This document shows positions 38,586 to 61,815 of a stretch of 64,000 nucleotides of DNA, one piece after another (positions within the stretch are counted from its first letter, which is position 1; the number at the start of each line of letters is the position of its first letter). The notes under the pieces were generated by a model. The model saw nothing but the letters and a program-made list of their open reading frames with translations, was not told the DNA's origin and ran no database searches. Both the position numbers and the translations under genes were made by a program. Source of the DNA: Shigella phage Sf18; the sequence record MF158044; one strand, written 5' to 3'.

Positions 38586-40958
38586 ATGCGCATGGTAAAT
38601 GACCACGCAACGGTAATTAAAAGCTCAAGTACACTGGAAACCTCTCAGGCTCAGATTAAGATGACACCTGAAATGTTCAGTCTTCTAAGCTCAGGTGTTT
38701 ACACATATAAAGAACGTGCTGTAATTCGTGAATTGTCATGTAACGCAGTAGATGCTCACATTGATTCTGGTAACGTTGATAAACCTTTCTTGGTTCACTT
38801 ACCAACTCGTTTCGAGCCATTCTTTGAAGTTCGTGACTTTGGTACAGGGCTGACTCATGATAAAGTTATGAAACTTTACATGACCTATGGAGAATCTACA
38901 AAGAACGATTCAAACGACTACATTGGTGCTATGGGTATCGGTTCAAAGTCACCTTTTGCAATTGCTCAGTCATTCACTGTATCAAGCTATGTTGATGGTG
39001 TAGTTAACAAATACTCAGTTTACCTTGAGAATGGCATCCCTCAAGTAACTAAGTTGACTACTAACCCAACTACAGAGCCAAATGGTTTAGCTGTTCGAGT
39101 AGCGGTATCCGATAACCGTATCAACAAGTTTCATGAAGAAGCGAGCAATGTATACTCGTACTTTAAAGTTAAGCCAGAGTGTAATGTTGAGTACTATGAC
39201 ATTCTTGAAGCAATGACTTCCATTTCTCGTGAAGATGGTGTCTATGATGCAATGAAGTACAAAGAGAACTGGCGTTCAAATAGTAACAGTGTCCATTTCA
39301 ATGTAATCATGGGTAATATTGCTTATCCTGTTGAAATGGGTGAGTTGCTTGGTTCAGAGTTTACAAGCATTCTGCCTCAGTTCTTCCGTAGTGCTGTAGA
39401 CCTTGTTAACATCTACATGCCAATTGGTTCAGTGGCTATTGCTGCATCTCGTGAAGCATTGCAGATGAATGAGACCACTAAGACCAAGATTGTTGAAGCT
39501 GTGAAGAAAATCACTAAGACAATCGTAGAAGATGTGGTAAAAGAGATTGCTAACAAGCCAACTCTGATTGATGCTGCTCAAGCCTATGATACCATGAGGA
39601 AGGAGGCTCGTGAAATCTTTATTCACGTCCAAGATTCTCTGGAATGGCAAGGCCAGAACTTGAAAAAGCTTGAACAAAAACTGTTAGGTATCCGTCGTGG
39701 TCAGTTAACTGAAGCAGATGGTTCTCCATCATTCTTGAAAGATGATGCAGGTAACTTGAGGCTTGACAAAGATGGTAATCCAGTTCCTAATATTGGTAAT
39801 CTGTATGAACCTGTAGCATACTACAAGTACAGCAGTCTGGAGAACCGTATTCGAGCAACTTCAGCAACTTATTCACAAGATTCAGCAATGTTTAGTATCT
39901 TTGGTGCAATGAGTAAAGATAAGTTGAGCAACTATTTGTTCCTTATCAATGACCGTCGAAACAAGAACGGGTCTGAGAAGACAACTGGTAAAAACCAGAT
40001 TATCCGTGGAGCTTGCCGTGACCGTGAACAGGAAGACTCTAACTTCCGTCGCTACAACGGTATTGCTTTCTTGTTCAGCAGTCAGCAGCAATTCGATGAG
40101 TTTGTAGATTTGCATATGCTTGACAAGAGTCTGTTAAGTGTGCATACAATGTCATCTAAAGAGCACCACTATGAGAAACGTACTATTGTACGTGGTGTTG
40201 TAAAACTGTATAAAGCATTTATATGTCCAAATACCGACATAATTCGCTATACAGAGGTTAAAGAGAACTTTGATGAGATTGAAGAACCACAACTGTATAT
40301 CAAAGCACAGAGTGATGAAGTGATTGGTGGAATCTTCTCATGTTCACCAGAACGTGCTGCAACGTTGATGACAGAGTTAACTGGACAGTCAGTTTATGTC
40401 TTCCGTAAAGCCAACTGGAAAAAGATTCCTGAAGATTGGACAGAAGTCAATGAACAAGTATTGAAAGATTTTATTGATGCCACACATTGGATTGAGTATC
40501 ATCGTTTCTTGACTCACCAGTATATGACAAATAATCACGATATCACTGATTGTAATGTTATTTCTCGAAACTTTACGTTTGCTGATAAGCGTAAGTCCAG
40601 AGGCCACATTTACAGTAAAGATTTTAAGAAGACTATTTTCTTAGAAGGGAATGAAGAAGCTATAGAAGCAATGTTTGGACGCTTGGCATACACTGCTGCA
40701 CCAGTTGCTTACAAAGATATTACCAGCACTCTTGATACCATTCGTAGGAATATGAGAGGTTCTTGTAAGCCAAGAAAGGTTCTGGATAACGCTAAGAAGC
40801 GTCTTGAAAGCAAGTTCAAAGATTACTTTGAGAAACGCCGTAAAGAAAACTTCTTGCTTTCTAATCTGGATTGGAATAAAGTATCACCAGTCGAAGTTGG
40901 TAAGTTCTTAGGTTTTGATACTAAGAGCATTCCAGAAGACACTGTATGCTGGGATTAA
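38586..40958 (+). CDS. rIIA: rIIA-like protein
   Basis: 790 aa; N-terminal GHKL/Hsp90-like ATPase signature (RELSCNAVDAH...DFGTGL...GIGSKSPF); size and pairing with downstream gene as in rIIA/rIIB. Confidence 0.6.
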   Translation: MRMVNDHATVIKSSSTLETSQAQIKMTPEMFSLLSSGVYTYKERAVIRELSCNAVDAHIDSGNVDKPFLVHLPTRFEPFFEVRDFGTGLTHDKVMKLYMTYGESTKNDSNDYIGAMGIGSKSPFAIAQSFTVSSYVDGVVNKYSVYLENGIPQVTKLTTNPTTEPNGLAVRVAVSDNRINKFHEEASNVYSYFKVKPECNVEYYDILEAMTSISREDGVYDAMKYKENWRSNSNSVHFNVIMGNIAYPVEMGELLGSEFTSILPQFFRSAVDLVNIYMPIGSVAIAASREALQMNETTKTKIVEAVKKITKTIVEDVVKEIANKPTLIDAAQAYDTMRKEAREIFIHVQDSLEWQGQNLKKLEQKLLGIRRGQLTEADGSPSFLKDDAGNLRLDKDGNPVPNIGNLYEPVAYYKYSSLENRIRATSATYSQDSAMFSIFGAMSKDKLSNYLFLINDRRNKNGSEKTTGKNQIIRGACRDREQEDSNFRRYNGIAFLFSSQQQFDEFVDLHMLDKSLLSVHTMSSKEHHYEKRTIVRGVVKLYKAFICPNTDIIRYTEVKENFDEIEEPQLYIKAQSDEVIGGIFSCSPERAATLMTELTGQSVYVFRKANWKKIPEDWTEVNEQVLKDFIDATHWIEYHRFLTHQYMTNNHDITDCNVISRNFTFADKRKSRGHIYSKDFKKTIFLEGNEEAIEAMFGRLAYTAAPVAYKDITSTLDTIRRNMRGSCKPRKVLDNAKKRLESKFKDYFEKRRKENFLLSNLDWNKVSPVEVGKFLGFDTKSIPEDTVCWD

Positions 40959-40994: not shown

Positions 40995-41037
40995 ACGAAC
41001 CACTAAGTAATTTTAAACAACAAAGAGAGATATTGAA

Positions 41038-42159
41038 ATGACTACTAAGACTAAAGCACAAATCGACGCAGAAATCTATGCACTGGTTAAAGAAGGTAAA
41101 CTGACCAAAACTGCAATTGCTCTGAAGTATAACACTTCAACCCGTTCAGTAGGTCGTGCTGTAGAGCGTCATGAAGCAACACTGCTGTCAGGGAAAACCA
41201 AAGCAAAACCTGCAAAGACTCTGAAAGATATTGCAAAGAATGCTAAGAAAGCTAAAGCGACCAAGAAAGTATCTAAGCAGAAACCTGTTGCAAAAGCTGT
41301 TAAAGAAGCAGTCAAAGCAGAGCCTGTAAATGCTCTGCATGAAGCAATGCAGAATAACAGCCAGATTGAATACATGATTACTGGTGATTCTGTTATCATG
41401 ACTTTCGGTGCAGAGTCTGAGATTGTTGAGTCAACTCATCCTAACTACACTGATATTGTAATGGCTGTTGTTTCAGGTGAGTACAAGAAAGCTTTTGAAC
41501 TGATGAACATTCGCAAGTCTATTGAGAACTTCACTCAAGGTGCTGTAACCATCAAAGGTGACAACCTGTATTACGGTGCTGTTCAGATGCGCTCAACTCT
41601 GGTAGACCGTATTCTGGATATGATGAAGAAAGGTGATAATGGTTTTGTTCGACTGATTGAATTCTTTGAAAAACTGATGGAAAACCCATCAAAAGATTCT
41701 GTAGAACAACTTTGGGGCTTTGTATCACACCTTGATGTTGAAATTGATGAAGAAGGTTATATCATCGGCTGGAAGAAAGTCACAACTCGTGGTGGTAAAC
41801 TGTTTGACTCTCGTACCTGCAAAGTTCCAAATGATTTGGGTAACATTGTAGAGATGCCACGTTGGATGGTTGATAATAACCGTCATGTAACCTGCTCTCA
41901 GGGTCTGCACGTTGGTGCTTGGGATTATGTAACTAGCTTCTCTGGTGACACTATCCTGAAAGTTCGTGTTCATCCTCGTGATGTTGTTTCAGTACCAACT
42001 GACTACAACGACATGAAAATGCGAGCTTCCCGCTATGAAGTTGCAGCGATTGTAAATAGTCGCCGTGAAGTCATCAAAGAGTGGGATGGTTCAGAAGCAC
42101 TCCACGTAGTTGTAGGTACTGCTGGTGAACTGATTTCTCAGCGTAAACGTGAAGTTTAA
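41038..42159 (+). CDS. rIIB: rIIB-like protein
   Basis: 373 aa; call rests on position immediately downstream of rIIA-like gene and size; no independent motif. Confidence 0.4.
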   Translation: MTTKTKAQIDAEIYALVKEGKLTKTAIALKYNTSTRSVGRAVERHEATLLSGKTKAKPAKTLKDIAKNAKKAKATKKVSKQKPVAKAVKEAVKAEPVNALHEAMQNNSQIEYMITGDSVIMTFGAESEIVESTHPNYTDIVMAVVSGEYKKAFELMNIRKSIENFTQGAVTIKGDNLYYGAVQMRSTLVDRILDMMKKGDNGFVRLIEFFEKLMENPSKDSVEQLWGFVSHLDVEIDEEGYIIGWKKVTTRGGKLFDSRTCKVPNDLGNIVEMPRWMVDNNRHVTCSQGLHVGAWDYVTSFSGDTILKVRVHPRDVVSVPTDYNDMKMRASRYEVAAIVNSRREVIKEWDGSEALHVVVGTAGELISQRKREV

Positions 42160-42176
42160 TAAGTAAATTCCTAAAG

Positions 42177-42199
42177 GGGCTGCTTCGGCAGCCTTTTTT
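42177..42199 (+). terminator. intrinsic terminator
   Basis: GGCTGC-TTCG-GCAGCC hairpin followed by TTTTTT. Confidence 0.55.
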
Positions 42200-42260
42200 A
42201 TTTGAAAAATGTGCAGGTTAGTGTATAATTGTCTGCATGTTTAACAAAATAGGAGTGCAA

Positions 42261-42809
42261 ATGAAGAAATTTGTTTTAGGTTTGTGCTTATTCTTTACAG
42301 CACATTTAGCTACAGCATCTGACTGTCCAGAGCTTACAATCAGCCAGAAAGTTAATATGTTAAAAGCATATAACTATGGCGAAGGGCAGATGGGAAAAGG
42401 TTGGGGAATCCCTTTAGCAGCTATAGCCTTACAAGAGTCACAATTAGGTGTCATGTTAGAAAATAAAAAGACTCATGATTATGGTGTTTTCCAGAATCAC
42501 TTGAAGACTGTTGTAAAGCGTAACAAGGTATCTCCAAAGGTTGCTAAGAAGAAGCTAGTAAGTGACTTCCATTACTCAGCGAAAGAGGCTCATAAAGAGC
42601 TATTATTCTGGACTAAGGTTCATGGCAACCCAGATGGAAAGTACTCTATGAAGCGTGTCCTAGCTTCTTATAATGCTGGTTACAAATACAAGATTCCAAA
42701 GGCTAGACAATACTCTCAAGATGTGTACAATAACATGAAACTGCTTGCTCAATGTGAGTTTGCAACAAACATTAAAAAGGTAAAATATGAGCGAATCAAA
42801 ACAATTTGA
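42261..42809 (+). CDS. secreted lytic transglycosylase-like protein (GH23/SLT-like)
   Basis: Start at Met after AGGAG; signal peptide MKKFVLGLCLFFTAHLATA; E-S motif (ALQESQLG), G-x-x-Q (YGVFQ) and YNAG (LASYNAGY). Confidence 0.5.
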   Translation: MKKFVLGLCLFFTAHLATASDCPELTISQKVNMLKAYNYGEGQMGKGWGIPLAAIALQESQLGVMLENKKTHDYGVFQNHLKTVVKRNKVSPKVAKKKLVSDFHYSAKEAHKELLFWTKVHGNPDGKYSMKRVLASYNAGYKYKIPKARQYSQDVYNNMKLLAQCEFATNIKKVKYERIKTI

Positions 42810-43482
42810 CATGGTTCTGTGTCATGCTTATGATATTAAGCCACTTGATTTAGATATCAGTTCTGCAAGTTGGTCAGATATTACTAAAGCTGACTTTGCA
42901 GATACAGCAAGAAATGTTGTATGTAGTTTTGAAGACTTTCATTCAACAAAGACACAGGTTCCTTGTCAGGATTTGCTAACAGGTAAAACTGTGTATGTTG
43001 GTCGTAACAGCCTTATCTTGGTTGCAAAGAACTTGGAAGAAAAACGTAAAATGGTCTTAGCAGACATTGACGGTGTTCTTACAAGCTTTAATAAGGAGCT
43101 TAATGCAACTCTGCTAACTGATGGTACTTACTCACAGTACACTGATTTGGTAGAATCTTGCAGAGCTAAACCAACATATGTTTTTAACATTCTGTGTGGT
43201 ATATCAAGAAATGCTGATATAGGATTCTTAACTGCTCGTGGTGAATCACAAAGAGTTGTCACACATCTTTTCCTGAATGAGAATGTAGACAGTGATTTCC
43301 TACTGTTTATGCGTGGATTTGGTGACAATGAGATTAGTGCAGAAAGTTTGAAAGTTCGTATGCTTCAGTCTTGCATTCTACCTTACTATGATGTAGTATG
43401 CTTTATAGAAGATACAGTGAAGAACGTGGCAAAGGTAGAAAGAATCTTACCACACATCAAAACAATGCTTGTTAAAAACTGA
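42787..43482 (+). CDS. hypothetical protein, possible HAD-family phosphatase
   Basis: 231 aa; motif VLADIDGVLT resembles HAD motif I (DxDG[TV]); otherwise unassigned. Confidence 0.3.
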   Translation: MSESKQFDMVLCHAYDIKPLDLDISSASWSDITKADFADTARNVVCSFEDFHSTKTQVPCQDLLTGKTVYVGRNSLILVAKNLEEKRKMVLADIDGVLTSFNKELNATLLTDGTYSQYTDLVESCRAKPTYVFNILCGISRNADIGFLTARGESQRVVTHLFLNENVDSDFLLFMRGFGDNEISAESLKVRMLQSCILPYYDVVCFIEDTVKNVAKVERILPHIKTMLVKN

Positions 43483-43493
43483 GAGAGTAAACC

Positions 43494-43958
43494 ATGCAAA
43501 ACATTATTACAGTAGCTATCGATGCTTCCGGTAACAAATCACAGGTAGTTCGTGAGATTATCAAGAGTAATTTCGATGGTAAAATCTTTCGTGCAGTAAA
43601 CGTGAAAGCTGATGGTAACATTCGTGAGTATCGTGCAATGTTGAATGTCACAAAACACGTTAAGGGTGTCGGTTCAACTACTGCTCATAAAGAAAATCTG
43701 ATGACTATCTATGATATGGGTATGGCTTCAGAGTTAGGTGCAAAAGGGATTGTACAATCCGGTGCTCCTTACCGTTCTTTCAATCTGGAAACTGCTCTTA
43801 TGCTTTCCTTTACAAGTGGTTCTCAAACTACCACTTACCTCTTCACAGATACTGCAACGGTTTCTGCGATTAAGGACAATACCATTAAGGCTGGCGTAGC
43901 TGCCGCTTCAAAAGCCTCAACAATGGCAGCAAATGTCCTTGCGAAAGTTCTTGGTTAA
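43494..43958 (+). CDS. hypothetical protein
   Basis: 154-aa ORF, SD GAGAG. Confidence 0.4.
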   Translation: MQNIITVAIDASGNKSQVVREIIKSNFDGKIFRAVNVKADGNIREYRAMLNVTKHVKGVGSTTAHKENLMTIYDMGMASELGAKGIVQSGAPYRSFNLETALMLSFTSGSQTTTYLFTDTATVSAIKDNTIKAGVAAASKASTMAANVLAKVLG

Positions 43959-43969
43959 AGTTATTATAG

Positions 43970-43992
43970 AGGCTCCTTCGGGAGCCTTTTTC
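43970..43992 (+). terminator. intrinsic terminator
   Basis: AGGCTCC-TTCG-GGAGCCT hairpin followed by TTTTT. Confidence 0.55.
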
Positions 43993-44010
43993 ATTTCTAG
44001 GAGAAGTTAA

Positions 44011-44358
44011 ATGACGTTTAAAGAATTTTGTCAAGCAGCTTTTGCAATCATTTTCTTAACAGGTGTTGGTGCTTGGGGAGGCTACACTTACAAGACCAGC
44101 CAAGTTAATGAAAAGGAGTTAACTAACCAGAGACTTGTGAGTGTTGCTAAAGATGCTTATCAAGAGGGTTTATCAAATCTTAGCTCCAATTACAAAAATG
44201 ATTTGAAAGATGTGCTTGCTAAAAACAAACACACCAAAGAGGTATTGAACTATGAAAAAACTAAGACAGTCTTTATTAATGATTGTGCTACTGAGCCTTA
44301 TGTCAGGGTGTTCAACGAACAAAGTGAACAGTACCTTCAAAAACTCCCAAGTAAGTGA
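44011..44358 (+). CDS. type II membrane protein, candidate i-spanin
   Basis: 115 aa; single N-terminal TM (AAFAIIFLTGVGAWGG) then polar, partly helical domain; overlapped at 3' end by a lipoprotein ORF in another frame. Confidence 0.35.
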   Translation: MTFKEFCQAAFAIIFLTGVGAWGGYTYKTSQVNEKELTNQRLVSVAKDAYQEGLSNLSSNYKNDLKDVLAKNKHTKEVLNYEKTKTVFINDCATEPYVRVFNEQSEQYLQKLPSK

Positions 44359-44518
44359 GAGTGACAAGTACACTCAAGAAGAAGCACGGTATGAGGTTAA
44401 AGGTACTAAAGGTGAAGACCTTGCAAGTGCTCTTGAGTTTTATCGTGATGGTTACTATGAATGTACTATTAAGGCAAACAATTTAATTGATATGATTTTG
44501 TTAGGGAATAAGCAGTAA
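44252..44518 (+). CDS. lipoprotein, candidate o-spanin
   Basis: 88 aa; signal peptide with lipobox LMSGC; own SD AGAGG; overlaps preceding ORF by 107 nt out of frame. Confidence 0.35.
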   Translation: MKKLRQSLLMIVLLSLMSGCSTNKVNSTFKNSQVSESDKYTQEEARYEVKGTKGEDLASALEFYRDGYYECTIKANNLIDMILLGNKQ

Positions 44519-46323: not shown

Positions 46324-46391
46324 TAAGTTACCCAGATAAACATAGACAAGCCCTCCAAAGTTTGAGTTTAAAATCTCAGGTAAGGGGGGCT

Positions 46392-46576
46392 TTTTCATTT
46401 TAAATTTGTGCAGGTATAGTTGCATAGAACTCTGGACAGATTTCTTTAGCTGAACTCCAAAGGGAAAATTCATTTCAAATTTGTGCAGGTTTAGACTCCA
46501 AAGGGATTTTTCATTTTCAATCTGTGCAGATGCAGTTGGACTCCAAAGGGAAAATTCATTTTCAGTTTGTGCAGGT
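46392..46576. repeat. tandem array of four ~42-bp repeats with TTTGTGCAGGT core
   Basis: Units (CTCCAAAGGG)(A/T)TTCATTT(Y)MARTYTGTGCAGRT at about 46392, 46466, 46507, 46552; followed by C-rich tract 46596-46630; related motif upstream of SLT-like gene at 42203-42230. Confidence 0.55.
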
Positions 46577-46749
46577 AGGTAGCTGTAGGAAACCAGCCCC
46601 ACCACCCCCTCTTACTCCCCTTCCTCCCAAAAGTCAAGAGAAAAATTTGTAGAGAACTCAAAAATAATTCTTGACTAGATTCCTGTTTTAGTGTATCCGC
46701 ATACGTGCGTTCTATTCACGAAGCATCGAAAATATTTTTAAAAATTTTG

Positions 46750-61344: not shown

Positions 61345-61815
61345 CTATTTTGGATAAACAGCGTCAAGGTAAATCTTGGCTTCCAAACTACGTCTATTTT
61401 GTAGACCCTTGGAAGTTACTTTTTGACCATTCACTGTAATCTTGTTCCACCACTGCATAGCTTCTGCACAACCAGCTTTGTTACCAGCATTGTGACGCTT
61501 GATAAAAGTTGAATCCTGCATAGCACCGATGCCAATGTTGTAAGTCTCTACAACAAGTGCGTCAAATTCGTTCTGCGTAGTTGGAACCTTAATTGCTCTG
61601 TTTACTGCACCTACATAGTTCTCAACATCTGCAAGGAGATATTGTTCAGCTTGCTCGGCAGTAATCTTCATCCCCATCGTAACAGGTCTTCCGTTGATAC
61701 GAATTGTACCATAACCAATTGTAGGGATTCCAGCAGAGTCTTTATAGGCTTCTAAACGAAGCCCTTCAAAGAACTTAATGGCTTCTAAGCCTTTACTTGA
61801 GAGTTGCATTATCAA
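61345..61815 (-). CDS. endolysin, T4 e-type lysozyme (GH24)
   Basis: 156 aa; catalytic-region signature FEGLRLEAYKDSAGIPTIGYG and downstream blocks typical of phage lysozymes. Confidence 0.7.
   Translation of the reverse strand: MIMQLSSKGLEAIKFFEGLRLEAYKDSAGIPTIGYGTIRINGRPVTMGMKITAEQAEQYLLADVENYVGAVNRAIKVPTTQNEFDALVVETYNIGIGAMQDSTFIKRHNAGNKAGCAEAMQWWNKITVNGQKVTSKGLQNRRSLEAKIYLDAVYPK

What the first reader, a model, noticed from the sequence alone, without database searches (positions are those of the whole stretch)
42261..42809. Signal-peptide-bearing lytic transglycosylase-like protein
The protein has a cleavable Sec signal and the three hallmark motifs of family GH23 lytic transglycosylases (E-S, G-x-x-Q, YNAG) in the right order. 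Virion-associated transglycosylases are usually domains of large tail proteins without signal peptides; a small secreted one suggests an exported accessory lysis enzyme or a role in superinfection. Its upstream region carries the TTTGTGCAGGT-type motif.
Basis: partly seen in the sequence, partly recalled or inferred. Interest (0 to 1): 0.4.

Follow-up and report, generated by a model that had tools for sequence, protein, structure and literature searches.

The report
Secreted SLT-like wall enzyme, T4 Vs.1 family
This is a real phage gene for a small enzyme exported to the periplasm and built like a cell-wall-cutting lytic transglycosylase; it belongs to the long-recognised but never functionally tested T4 Vs.1 family, so the call is correct and mostly ordinary.

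Summary
Window 42261-42809 (+) encodes a 182-aa protein with a cleavable-looking Sec signal (predicted cut ATA|SD after residue 19). The E59-S60, G75-V-F-Q78 and Y137-N-A-G140 motifs occur in that order.

The window is a Mooglevirus (Felix O1-like) phage, 99.5% identical to Shigella phage Sf15.

- **Pfam:** the protein alone scores below the SLT cut-off (18.4 vs 21.3 bits).
- **Family evidence:** 81 of 98 homologues hit SLT. A family profile hits EtgA (E=1.4e-5).

It is an orthologue-level relative of T4 Vs.1 (PHROG 600, E=3.6e-57). SLT similarity in Vs.1 was published in 2006. Near-identical proteins are already deposited as "putative lysin".

The gene has its own near-consensus sigma-70 promoter directly after the rIIB terminator, so it is probably early. 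The phage has a separate GH24 endolysin, a holin and spanins.

Asp73 aligns with lysozyme D52 and EtgA D60, so transglycosylase versus muramidase chemistry is undecided. The biological role is inferred only; my best guess is holin-independent conditioning of the wall, or accessory lysis. Interest is low to moderate.

The parts
42173..42204 (+). Rho-independent terminator that closes the rIIA-rIIB unit (GGGGCUGC-UUCG-GCAGCC stem, then a U run)
   Evidence: RNA fold -15.6 kcal/mol, z=-2.57; sequence; a terminator is annotated at the same place in phage AYO145A
42202..42229 (+). Sigma-70-type promoter TTGAAA-16 nt-TATAAT (11 of 12 matches); predicted start near 42236
   Evidence: a promoter is annotated at the equivalent place in AYO145A; the -10 box and the TTTGTGCAG core are conserved there
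42210..42218 (+). TGTGCAGGT core motif lying in the promoter spacer
   Evidence: other exact copies at 46407, 46482 and 46568
42252..42255 (+). Shine-Dalgarno GGAG, 5 nt before the ATG
   Evidence: sequence
42261..42809 (+). CDS, 182 aa: Vs.1-family secreted SLT-like peptidoglycan glycosidase (mature form 163 aa, 18.7 kDa, pI 9.8)
42261..42317 (+). Sec signal peptide, residues 1-19; predicted cleavage A19|S20
   Evidence: 92 of 98 homologues have a hydrophobic N-terminus; low pLDDT for residues 1-20
42324..42326 (+). Cys22, N-terminal partner of the inferred disulfide
   Evidence: Invariant in the close alignment. Co-occurs with the C-terminal Cys: 37 with both, 0 with N-terminal only, 4 with C-terminal only, 57 with neither
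42435..42440 (+). [quoted passage not shown]
   Evidence: E59 in 98/98 and S60 in 96/98; aligns with E-S of EtgA and of C-type lysozyme; helix boundaries
42477..42494 (+). D73-Y-G-V-F-Q78 beta-hairpin motif (GxxQ). D73 aligns with EtgA D60 and lysozyme D52
42669..42680 (+). Y137-N-A-G140 motif
   Evidence: Y, N and G invariant in 98/98
42753..42755 (+). Cys165, C-terminal partner of the inferred disulfide
42787..43482 (+). Downstream gene, apparently co-transcribed: polynucleotide kinase/phosphatase-like protein (231 aa)
   Evidence: PHROG 3970 E=4.9e-128; SLT-PNK adjacency conserved across Ounavirinae
43494..43958 (+). Third gene of the apparent unit, 154 aa, function unknown (PHROG 2267)
43968..43999 (+). 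Terminator-like hairpin that closes the three-gene unit, just before the spanin genes
   Evidence: a terminator is annotated at the same place in AYO145A

Best explanation
The gene encodes a small periplasmic peptidoglycan glycosidase with the GH23 / lytic-transglycosylase fold. It is the Felix O1-group counterpart of T4 Vs.1.

Proposed sequence of events:
1. Host RNA polymerase transcribes the gene soon after infection from a near-consensus sigma-70 promoter that follows the rIIB terminator. The PNK-like gene and a 154-aa ORF are transcribed with it.
2. The Sec system exports the pre-protein, and signal peptidase I cuts after Ala19.
3. The 18.7-kDa basic mature protein folds in the periplasm. 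A Cys22-Cys165 disulfide ties its two ends together.
4. The enzyme binds a glycan strand in its cleft, and Glu59 protonates the MurNAc-(beta-1,4)-GlcNAc bond.
5. The product is either 1,6-anhydroMurNAc (transglycosylase route) or, with Asp73 assisting water as in lysozyme and possibly EtgA, a reducing MurNAc end.

The enzyme reaches the wall without a holin, and the phage has a separate cytoplasmic GH24 endolysin plus holin and spanins. I therefore infer limited nicking or conditioning of the sacculus during the latent period, which assists final envelope disruption. It would be an accessory, not the primary, lysis enzyme.

Shown here: gene, signal-peptide features, fold, active-site residues, family, promoter and terminator. 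Inferred: export, disulfide, catalysis, early timing, biological role.
For: Identity and fold:
- PHROG 600, full length, E=3.6e-57.
- BLASTP to T4 Vs.1: 33% identity, E=2e-14.
- 81 of 98 homologues hit Pfam SLT, best 1.2e-11.
- Family profile against PDB: EtgA E=1.4e-5, with E-S, D/GxxQ, YNAG and the final Tyr aligned.
- AlphaFold model: pLDDT 87.6, pTM 0.81.
- Nearest viral models are Vs.1-like 'transglycosylase SLT domain' proteins.

Catalytic residues: E59, G75, Y137, N138, G140 and Y151 are invariant in 98 sequences. dN/dS is 0.125.

Export:
- Hydrophobic N-terminus in 92 of 98 members.
- Strict co-occurrence of the two terminal cysteines (37 both / 0 N-only / 4 C-only / 57 neither), as expected for a disulfide formed in the periplasm.

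Timing:
- TTGAAA-16-TATAAT promoter directly after a terminator, conserved in AYO145A.
- T4 vs.1 is classed early RNA / middle protein (PMC9697503 supplement).

Accessory role:
- A separate signal-less GH24 endolysin lies at window 61345-61815 (-) (Sf17 gp017). A holin is elsewhere. Spanins are 1.2 kb downstream.
- In a T4-like contig the homologue sits directly beside the endolysin gene and near the antiholin.
- Precedent: Kayvirus Tgl is a signal-peptide-bearing phage LT-like enzyme with an early-type promoter, shown to act as an additional endolysin (PMC7150955).
Against: - The protein alone is below Pfam SLT's gathering score (18.4 vs 21.3 bits). Foldseek E-values against PDB are weak (best 0.013).
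- My paper searches found no report of an enzymatic assay for any Vs.1-family protein.
- Established T4 genetics (my knowledge, not tested here): gene e mutants fail to lyse. So Vs.1 cannot replace the endolysin, and any lytic contribution must be small.
- Unregulated export of an active muramidase should harm the host before progeny are made; Tgl lyses E. coli. Activity must therefore be low or controlled in a way I cannot see.
- The promoter is a consensus match only. No transcript data exist for this phage.
- Proximity to rII and the spanins is weak guilt by association.
Confidence: 0.6

Rival explanations
1. It is the phage's main endolysin. It would be a Sec-secreted or signal-anchor-release (SAR) endolysin that accumulates in the envelope and lyses the cell when the membrane is depolarised.
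For: It has an N-terminal export signal, a muralytic fold, and spanin genes 1.2 kb downstream. Some records call it 'putative lysin'.
Against: A canonical T4-lysozyme-like GH24 endolysin without a signal is present in the window (61345-61815 -) and is annotated as the endolysin in Sf17. A holin gene is also present. The N-terminus is strongly hydrophobic with an AXA cleavage site, unlike the weakly hydrophobic Gly/Ala-rich SAR domains. T4 carries the homologue yet depends on gene e for lysis (established knowledge). The promoter looks early.
Confidence: 0.05
2. It is a virion-associated enzyme that opens the peptidoglycan during DNA injection, like PRD1 P7, the T7 gp16 N-terminal domain or T4 gp5.
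For: Structural similarity to PRD1 P7 and to tail or internal-virion LT domains. No muralytic domain is annotated in the Mooglevirus tail genes.
Against: A cleavable Sec signal sends the protein out of the cytoplasm, where virions assemble. The gene sits in the early region behind a host-type promoter, far from the structural genes. The T4 homologue is early/middle. The protein is not listed in the Sf14 virion mass-spectrometry table (PMC11821841), although that table may not be exhaustive.
Confidence: 0.05
3. It is a periplasmic wall-remodelling enzyme whose purpose is not lysis. Like EtgA or VirB1, it might make local openings for a trans-envelope assembly such as the spanin complex. Or it might alter the sacculus for lysis inhibition, superinfection exclusion or muropeptide signalling.
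For: The closest solved relative by sequence profile is EtgA, a secretion-system-specialised enzyme with the same E/N/D/Q/YNxG/Y residue set. The gene lies between rIIB and the spanins. T4 vs.1 lies 2.2 kb from rI. The homologue is near the antiholin in L011. SLT-PNK adjacency recurs in Ounavirinae and a T4-like contig, and PNK-spanin adjacency recurs in T4 and Ounavirinae. Early, holin-independent export fits a pre-lysis job.
Against: No partner protein or docking motif was identified. Gene neighbourhoods differ between lineages: regB/vs in T4, rIIB/PNK here. No spanin requirement for such an enzyme is known. There is no experimental evidence of any kind.
Confidence: 0.2
4. It is a catalytically weak or inactive peptidoglycan-binding protein. 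It could act as a decoy or inhibitor, for example by shielding the wall or titrating host lysozyme inhibitors.
For: Below-threshold Pfam score. No activity has been reported for the family.
Against: The full catalytic complement is invariant across 98 diverse homologues (E59 98/98; Y-N-x-G 98/98; Y151 98/98). Purifying selection argues for a retained active site.
Confidence: 0.07

Closest known systems
Bacteriophage T4 Vs.1 (NP_049725, '20.7 kDa protein'), PHROG 600
   Same: Same family: full-length PHROG 600 match (E=3.6e-57) and 33% identity, E=2e-14. Similar length (181 vs 182 aa). Both have an N-terminal signal peptide, an E-S motif, GxxQ and YNxG. Pre-replicative expression is measured in T4 and inferred here. 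Function is unknown in both. SLT similarity was noted in 2006 (PMC1524935).
   Different: T4 Vs.1 has Ala where this protein has Asp73, and it lacks the Cys22/Cys165 pair and the basic C-terminal tail. Neighbours differ: regB and vs in T4, rIIB and PNK here.
EtgA / IagB / IpgF, the type III secretion-specialised peptidoglycan glycosidases (PDB 4XP8, 8URN)
   Different: EtgA is docked and activated by the T3SS rod protein EscI and is encoded inside a secretion-system locus. Here the context is a phage early operon with no such partner.
Family-1 lytic transglycosylases of Gram-negative bacteria (Slt70, MltC, MltE, MltF; Pfam PF01464, CAZy GH23)
   Different: The bacterial enzymes are larger, multidomain or lipoproteins, and lack the Asp at the position of D73 (Slt70 has Ala there; PMC10880428). 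This protein alone does not reach the PF01464 gathering score.
Kayvirus Tgl (Staphylococcus phage secreted LT-like accessory endolysin, PMC7150955)
   Same: A phage-encoded small LT-like enzyme with a signal peptide, exported by the host. It is transcribable by host RNA polymerase like an early gene, sits near but apart from the main endolysin, and is proposed as an additional endolysin.
   Different: Gram-positive host. It is related to IsaA/SceD and was not recovered as a homologue in any search here. Its activity has been shown experimentally, unlike this protein's.
C-type (hen egg-white type) lysozyme, GH22
   Different: Much weaker overall structural and sequence similarity than to GH23. 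The YNAG motif and helical C-terminal lobe are GH23 features. The four lysozyme disulfides are absent.

Membership tests
Pfam SLT (PF01464) / CAZy GH23 family-1 lytic transglycosylases | Protein scores above the curated Pfam gathering cut-off | tested here: not met
   18.4 bits, E=0.0017, against a cut-off of 21.3. However, 81 of 98 homologues match SLT at E<=0.01, best 1.2e-11, so homology is established through the family.
Pfam SLT (PF01464) / CAZy GH23 family-1 lytic transglycosylases | Lysozyme-like alpha-helical fold with a substrate cleft | tested here: met
Pfam SLT (PF01464) / CAZy GH23 family-1 lytic transglycosylases | Catalytic Glu followed by Ser at the C-terminal end of a helix | tested here: met
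   E59-S60 at the end of helix 49-60. E in 98/98 and S in 96/98.
Pfam SLT (PF01464) / CAZy GH23 family-1 lytic transglycosylases | Downstream motifs G-x-x-Q, A/S-Y-N-x-G and a conserved Tyr | tested here: met
   G75-V-F-Q78 (G 98/98; Q 73, H 23). S136-Y137-N138-A139-G140 (Y, N, G 98/98). Y151 98/98.
Pfam SLT (PF01464) / CAZy GH23 family-1 lytic transglycosylases | Non-hydrolytic cleavage that gives 1,6-anhydroMurNAc products | not testable with these tools
   Needs LC-MS of muropeptides. Asp73, which aligns with lysozyme D52 and EtgA D60, leaves hydrolysis possible.
T4 Vs.1 family (PHROG 600) | Full-length sequence homology to Vs.1 | tested here: met
   PHROG 600 E=3.6e-57 over residues 1-170 of 182. 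T4 Vs.1 BLASTP E=2e-14. tblastn hits in T4-like phages labelled Vs.1 or '20.7 kDa protein'.
T4 Vs.1 family (PHROG 600) | About 160-200 aa, single domain, with an N-terminal signal peptide | tested here: met
   182 aa. 92 of 98 family members have a hydrophobic N-terminal core. Representatives are mostly 160-200 aa and align from profile position 1.
T4 Vs.1 family (PHROG 600) | Pre-replicative (early or middle) expression | tested here: inconclusive
   Only a consensus sigma-70 promoter after a terminator. Early timing is measured for T4, not for this phage.
Secretion-system-specialised glycosidases (EtgA/IagB/IpgF/VirB1 type) | Small Sec-exported enzyme with the E/N/D/Q/YNxG/Y active-site set | tested here: met
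   Profile alignment to 8urn_A, E=1.4e-5. Residue list from PMC10880428. E59, N68, D73, Q78, Y137-N138-G140 and Y151 are present.
Secretion-system-specialised glycosidases (EtgA/IagB/IpgF/VirB1 type) | Encoded within, and docked to, a type III/IV secretion or pilus apparatus | tested here: not met
   Neighbours are rIIA, rIIB, PNK and spanins in a phage genome, with no secretion-system genes. So it works like this family but is not a member.
Canonical holin-dependent or SAR endolysin | The phage's lysis-essential muralytic enzyme: cytoplasmic (no signal), or with a weakly hydrophobic uncleaved SAR domain; late expression | tested here: not met
   It has a strongly hydrophobic signal with an AXA site. 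A separate GH24 endolysin is present. The promoter is early-type.
Virion-associated lytic transglycosylases (PRD1 P7, T7 gp16, phiKZ gp181) | Component of the virion, encoded among structural or late genes | tested here: not met
   It lies in the early region, 30 kb or more from the tail genes. It has a signal peptide. It is not in the Sf14 virion MS table.

The most novel reading that the evidence does not exclude
The enzyme may not be a minor lysin. It could be a dedicated early periplasmic 'hybrid' muramidase/transglycosylase of the EtgA type. Two unrelated myovirus lineages (Straboviridae Vs.1 and Ounavirinae) would use it to re-engineer the sacculus before lysis. Possible purposes are letting spanin complexes or lysis-inhibition machinery work through the wall, or making the infected cell refractory to superinfecting phage. 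This reading would explain its recurrent placement beside rII/rI, PNK and spanin genes.
Probability: 0.15. Interest if true: 0.55.

Novelty: already known. Interest (0 to 1): 0.25.

Why it matters
The gene adds no new kind of system. It is a correctly spotted member of the Vs.1 family, which is widespread: at least 623 clusters at 50% identity, and matches in 1,800 phage records.

The family does have residual value. It is a conserved, early-expressed, holin-independent wall enzyme present in T4, and none of my paper searches found a tested function for it.

Two points from this analysis make it easy to test. First, the Felix O1/Moogle clade carries the lysozyme-type Asp (D73) that T4 Vs.1 lacks, which gives a natural pair for asking whether these enzymes hydrolyse or transglycosylate. 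Second, the gene is a self-contained promoter-to-terminator unit, so it is easy to delete.

A small, basic, self-exporting muralytic enzyme could also interest people designing enzybiotics.

Tried and rejected
- **Single-sequence PDB search and 10-sequence profile.** Top hits were an ankyrin design and PRP4 kinase. These are short chance alignments and I rejected them. Only the 98-sequence profile gave meaningful hits.
- **NCBIfam and PADLOC.** Nothing relevant, so there is no link to a defence system.
- **Lipoprotein reading of 'LGLC' at residues 6-9.** Rejected: Leu at -1 violates the lipobox, Cys9 lies only 8 residues from the N-terminus, and it is not conserved.
- **Longer ORF from ATG 42237.** Rejected: no Shine-Dalgarno, it lies at the predicted transcription start, and annotators do not use it.
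- **SAR endolysin, main endolysin and virion enzyme.** Rejected; see the rival explanations.
- **Literature.** Searches for functional work on Vs.1 or on the Felix O1/Moogle homologue found only the 2006 domain note and T4 omics timing. One search was wasted on statistical 'vs. 1' noise. The Bas63 cryo-EM paper does not mention the protein.
- **Model geometry.** I could not read the AlphaFold coordinates. The Cys22-Cys165 distance and the E59/D73 geometry were not measured.

Full report
**1. What is at the coordinates**

Window 42261-42809 (+) is an intact ORF of 182 codons. Its ATG is preceded by GGAG at 42252-42255. The mechanically longest ORF starts at ATG 42237. That codon lies 7-8 nt after the -10 box of the promoter described below and has no ribosome-binding site. 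Relatives annotate the 549-nt version.

The window is a Mooglevirus (Ounavirinae, Felix O1-like myovirus). The stretch 41000-44500 is 99.5% identical to Shigella phage Sf15 and 97-99% identical to Sf13/14/16/17/19, KPS64 and Citrobacter phages Michonne and Maleficent. The protein is 100% identical to one encoded by Shigella phage Henu12.

**2.

- **Signal peptide.** The N-terminus reads MKK / FVLGLCLFFTA / HLATA | SD. It has a basic n-region, an 11-residue hydrophobic core (Kyte-Doolittle 2.54) and a c-region. A17-T18-A19 is the only site that satisfies the -3/-1 rule. No signal-peptide predictor was available, so this is sequence reading plus hydropathy. The feature belongs to the whole family: 92 of 98 homologues have the same hydrophobic N-terminus. 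The AlphaFold model is low-confidence only for residues 1-20 and for the C-terminal tail.
- **Motifs.** E59-S60, G75-V-F-Q78 and Y137-N-A-G140 are present in that order. E59, G75, Y137, N138, G140 and Y151 are invariant in a 98-sequence alignment with 24% mean column identity.
- **Selection.** dN/dS against the 76%-identical Felixounavirus orthologue is 0.125.
- **Upstream motif.** The text is AATGTGCAGGT rather than TTTGTGCAGGT. The 9-mer TGTGCAGGT is exact at 42210-42218.

**3. What the protein is**

On its own the protein is just below Pfam's SLT threshold (E=0.0017, 18.4 bits vs 21.3). The single-sequence PDB search gave only noise. Family-level evidence is decisive:

- PHROG 600 matches full length (E=3.6e-57; the family is labelled 'unknown function').
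- A profile search returned 149 relatives, many carrying PF01464. Some are named 'Vs.1 conserved transglycosylase SLT domain protein' (Aeromonas phages 65 and phiAS5).
- 81 of 98 aligned members hit SLT, best 1.2e-11.
- An exhaustive profile search found 623 clusters at E<=1e-3, mostly 160-200 aa and aligned from profile position 1.
- T4 Vs.1 itself aligns at 33% identity, E=2e-14.
- The 98-sequence profile hits the EscI-EtgA fusion structure (8urn_A, E=1.4e-5) across all motifs. C-type lysozymes follow (E=0.003-0.02), then Slt70 (0.05).
- Foldseek against PDB gave the same families with weak E-values. Against viral models, the top hits were Vs.1-like SLT proteins (E about 1e-8).

**4. Lytic transglycosylase or lysozyme?**

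Asp73, in the segment T-H-D-Y-G-V-F-Q-N, aligns with the Asp of Y-D-I-G-I-M-Q-I-N in EtgA and of D-Y-G-L-F-Q-L-N in C-type lysozymes. EtgA D60 is equivalent to lysozyme D52 and is needed for full EtgA activity. [quoted passage not shown]

This protein carries the whole EtgA residue set: E59, N68, D73, Q78, Y137-N138-x-G140, Y151. Across the family, position 73 is Ser (46), Asp (33) or Ala (16). T4 Vs.1 has Ala there, and the Kolesnikvirus orthologue has Ser.

Glu59 is therefore the only universal catalytic residue. That fits a transglycosylase-type single-acid mechanism for the family. A lysozyme-like assisted hydrolysis in the Felix/Moogle clade is not excluded.

**5. Evidence for periplasmic life**

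There are two supports besides the signal peptide.

- **Cysteine pair.** Cys22 is the third residue of the predicted mature protein, and Cys165 is near the end of the fold. The two co-occur strictly across the family: 37 sequences have both, 0 have only the N-terminal one, 4 have only the C-terminal one, and 57 have neither. Related sequences inflate the Fisher p-value, but the pattern is what a disulfide gives.
- **Charge.** The mature protein is basic (pI 9.8, 18.7 kDa).

**6. Expression unit and neighbours**

rIIA (38586-40958) and rIIB (41038-42159) lie upstream. A strong hairpin with a U-run follows at 42173-42204 (-15.6 kcal/mol). It overlaps a TTGAAA-16-TATAAT promoter at 42202-42229 (11 of 12 matches).

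Downstream come a PNK/phosphatase-like gene (42787-43482), a 154-aa ORF (43494-43958) and a terminator-like hairpin (43968-43989). The i- and o-spanin genes follow (44011-44518).

The AYO145A genome annotates a terminator, a promoter and the second terminator at the same positions. The order rIIA-rIIB-SLT-PNK is kept in Felixounavirus, and the order SLT-PNK is kept in Kolesnikvirus.

The phage's canonical endolysin is a signal-less GH24 protein at window 61345-61815 (-) (Sf17 gp017). A putative holin follows the tail fibres.

T4 vs.1 is classed early RNA / middle protein (PMC9697503 supplement). Early timing here is inferred from the host-type promoter and this parallel. It has not been measured.

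**7. Contexts elsewhere**

- T4: regB-vs.1-vs, 2.2 kb from rI and 4.2 kb from e.
- A T4-like metagenomic contig: endolysin, then the Vs.1 homologue, then the ValRS modifier, with the antiholin further along.
- Another T4-like contig: the Vs.1 homologue lies directly upstream of PNKP.
- T4 again: the spanin genes pseT.3 and pseT.2 lie directly upstream of pseT.
- A chimallin-encoding jumbo phage carries a 254-aa variant.
- A Campylobacterota chromosome carries a copy two genes from an OmpA-family gene.

The recurrent closeness to lysis and envelope genes is suggestive, not probative.

**8. Most likely mechanism**

Shown here: a real, constrained gene; signal-peptide features; the GH23 fold; a complete active site; membership of the Vs.1 family; its own promoter and terminator.

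Inferred: Sec export and cleavage at A19|S20; the Cys22-Cys165 disulfide; Glu59-catalysed cleavage of MurNAc-GlcNAc bonds; early expression; and a role as a holin-independent enzyme that conditions the wall or assists lysis.

The best functional precedent is Kayvirus Tgl. It is a signal-peptide-bearing phage LT-like enzyme with an early-type promoter, shown experimentally to be secreted and muralytic, and proposed as an additional endolysin (PMC7150955).

I put about 0.9 on the identity (exported GH23-like glycosidase of the Vs.1 family). I put about 0.35-0.4 on the accessory-lysis or conditioning role specifically. Overall confidence is 0.6.

The main counter-arguments are these:
- No member of the family has been assayed.
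- T4 e mutants do not lyse despite having Vs.1 (established knowledge).
- An unregulated exported muramidase should be harmful early in infection.

**9. Rivals**

- **Main or SAR endolysin (0.05).** Contradicted by the separate GH24 endolysin and by the cleavable-type signal.
- **Virion enzyme (0.05).** Contradicted by the signal peptide, the early location, and absence from the Sf14 virion MS table (that table may not be exhaustive).
- **Non-lytic remodelling, EtgA-like (0.2).** Not excluded. This is the most interesting alternative.
- **Inactive binding protein (0.07).** Contradicted by the invariant catalytic residues.

**10. Comparison, novelty and verdict**

The protein works like a family-1 lytic transglycosylase and, most closely, like the small secretion-system enzymes of the EtgA type. 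It is not a member of the EtgA group, because it has no secretion-system context. It is a member of the T4 Vs.1 family.

SLT similarity in Vs.1 was reported in 2006, corroborating earlier PSI-BLAST matches to lysozyme (PMC1524935). Sf14/17/19 and KPS64 already annotate this very protein as 'putative lysin, lysozyme-like domain IPR023346'. The finding is therefore correct but already known at the level of identification.

What remains open is the biology of the family. Interest is 0.25.

Noticed in passing
window 46380-46620 (+): An intergenic array of about 3-4 copies of a 41-45-nt unit, ACTCCAAAGGGAAAATTCATTTTCAATTTGTGCAGGTTTAG (TRF: period 45, 2.9 copies, 74% matches). Each copy ends in the TGTGCAGGT core that also sits in the spacer of the target gene's promoter. 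The units resemble decayed copies of a terminator-tail plus -35 plus spacer cassette. They could also be regulator binding sites or iterons.
   Followed up: partly
window 46596-46632 (+): A C-rich, polypyrimidine tract (ccccaccaccccctcttactccccttcctccc) lies directly after the repeat array. It is followed by strong-looking promoters (ttgactaga..., ttgacttcat...tatagtat) ahead of the next small early gene.
   Followed up: no
window 42787-43482 (+): The 'polynucleotide kinase' gene (231 aa, PHROG 3970) matches T4-type PNK profiles only over their C-terminal phosphatase part (residues 77-219 against profile positions 151-278 of 295). It may be a 3'-phosphatase with a different N-terminal domain. 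Its start overlaps the SLT gene by 23 nt in some annotations and follows the stop in others.
   Followed up: no
window 42261-44518; L013 259-1719; L014 (T4 134002-135781): Gene linkage recurs across unrelated myoviruses. A Vs.1-like gene lies directly upstream of PNK in Ounavirinae and in a T4-like metagenomic contig. PNK lies next to the spanin genes in both T4 (pseT.3-pseT.2-pseT.1-pseT) and Ounavirinae. I have no functional explanation.
   Followed up: partly
window 44252-44518 (+): The o-spanin ORF begins MKKLRQSLLMIVLLSLMSGC, which has a good lipobox (LMSGC) when read from ATG 44252. KPS64 and Sf17 annotate a shorter 198-nt CDS that would start inside or after this signal. The start may be mis-annotated in relatives.
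   Followed up: no
window 42756-42806 (+), residues 166-182 of the target: A basic C-terminal tail (EFATNIKKVKYERIKTI) is found only in the Moogle/Felix-type orthologues. It is predicted helical but with low confidence (pLDDT 50-75). It could be a membrane- or LPS-interacting amphipathic helix.
   Followed up: no
L005 8001-8507; L012 6001-6765: The Vs.1-like family is not confined to phages. A 168-aa copy sits in a Campylobacterota (Candidatus Marinarcus) chromosome, two genes from an OmpA-family gene. A 254-aa variant occurs in a chimallin-encoding (nucleus-forming) jumbo phage contig.
   Followed up: partly
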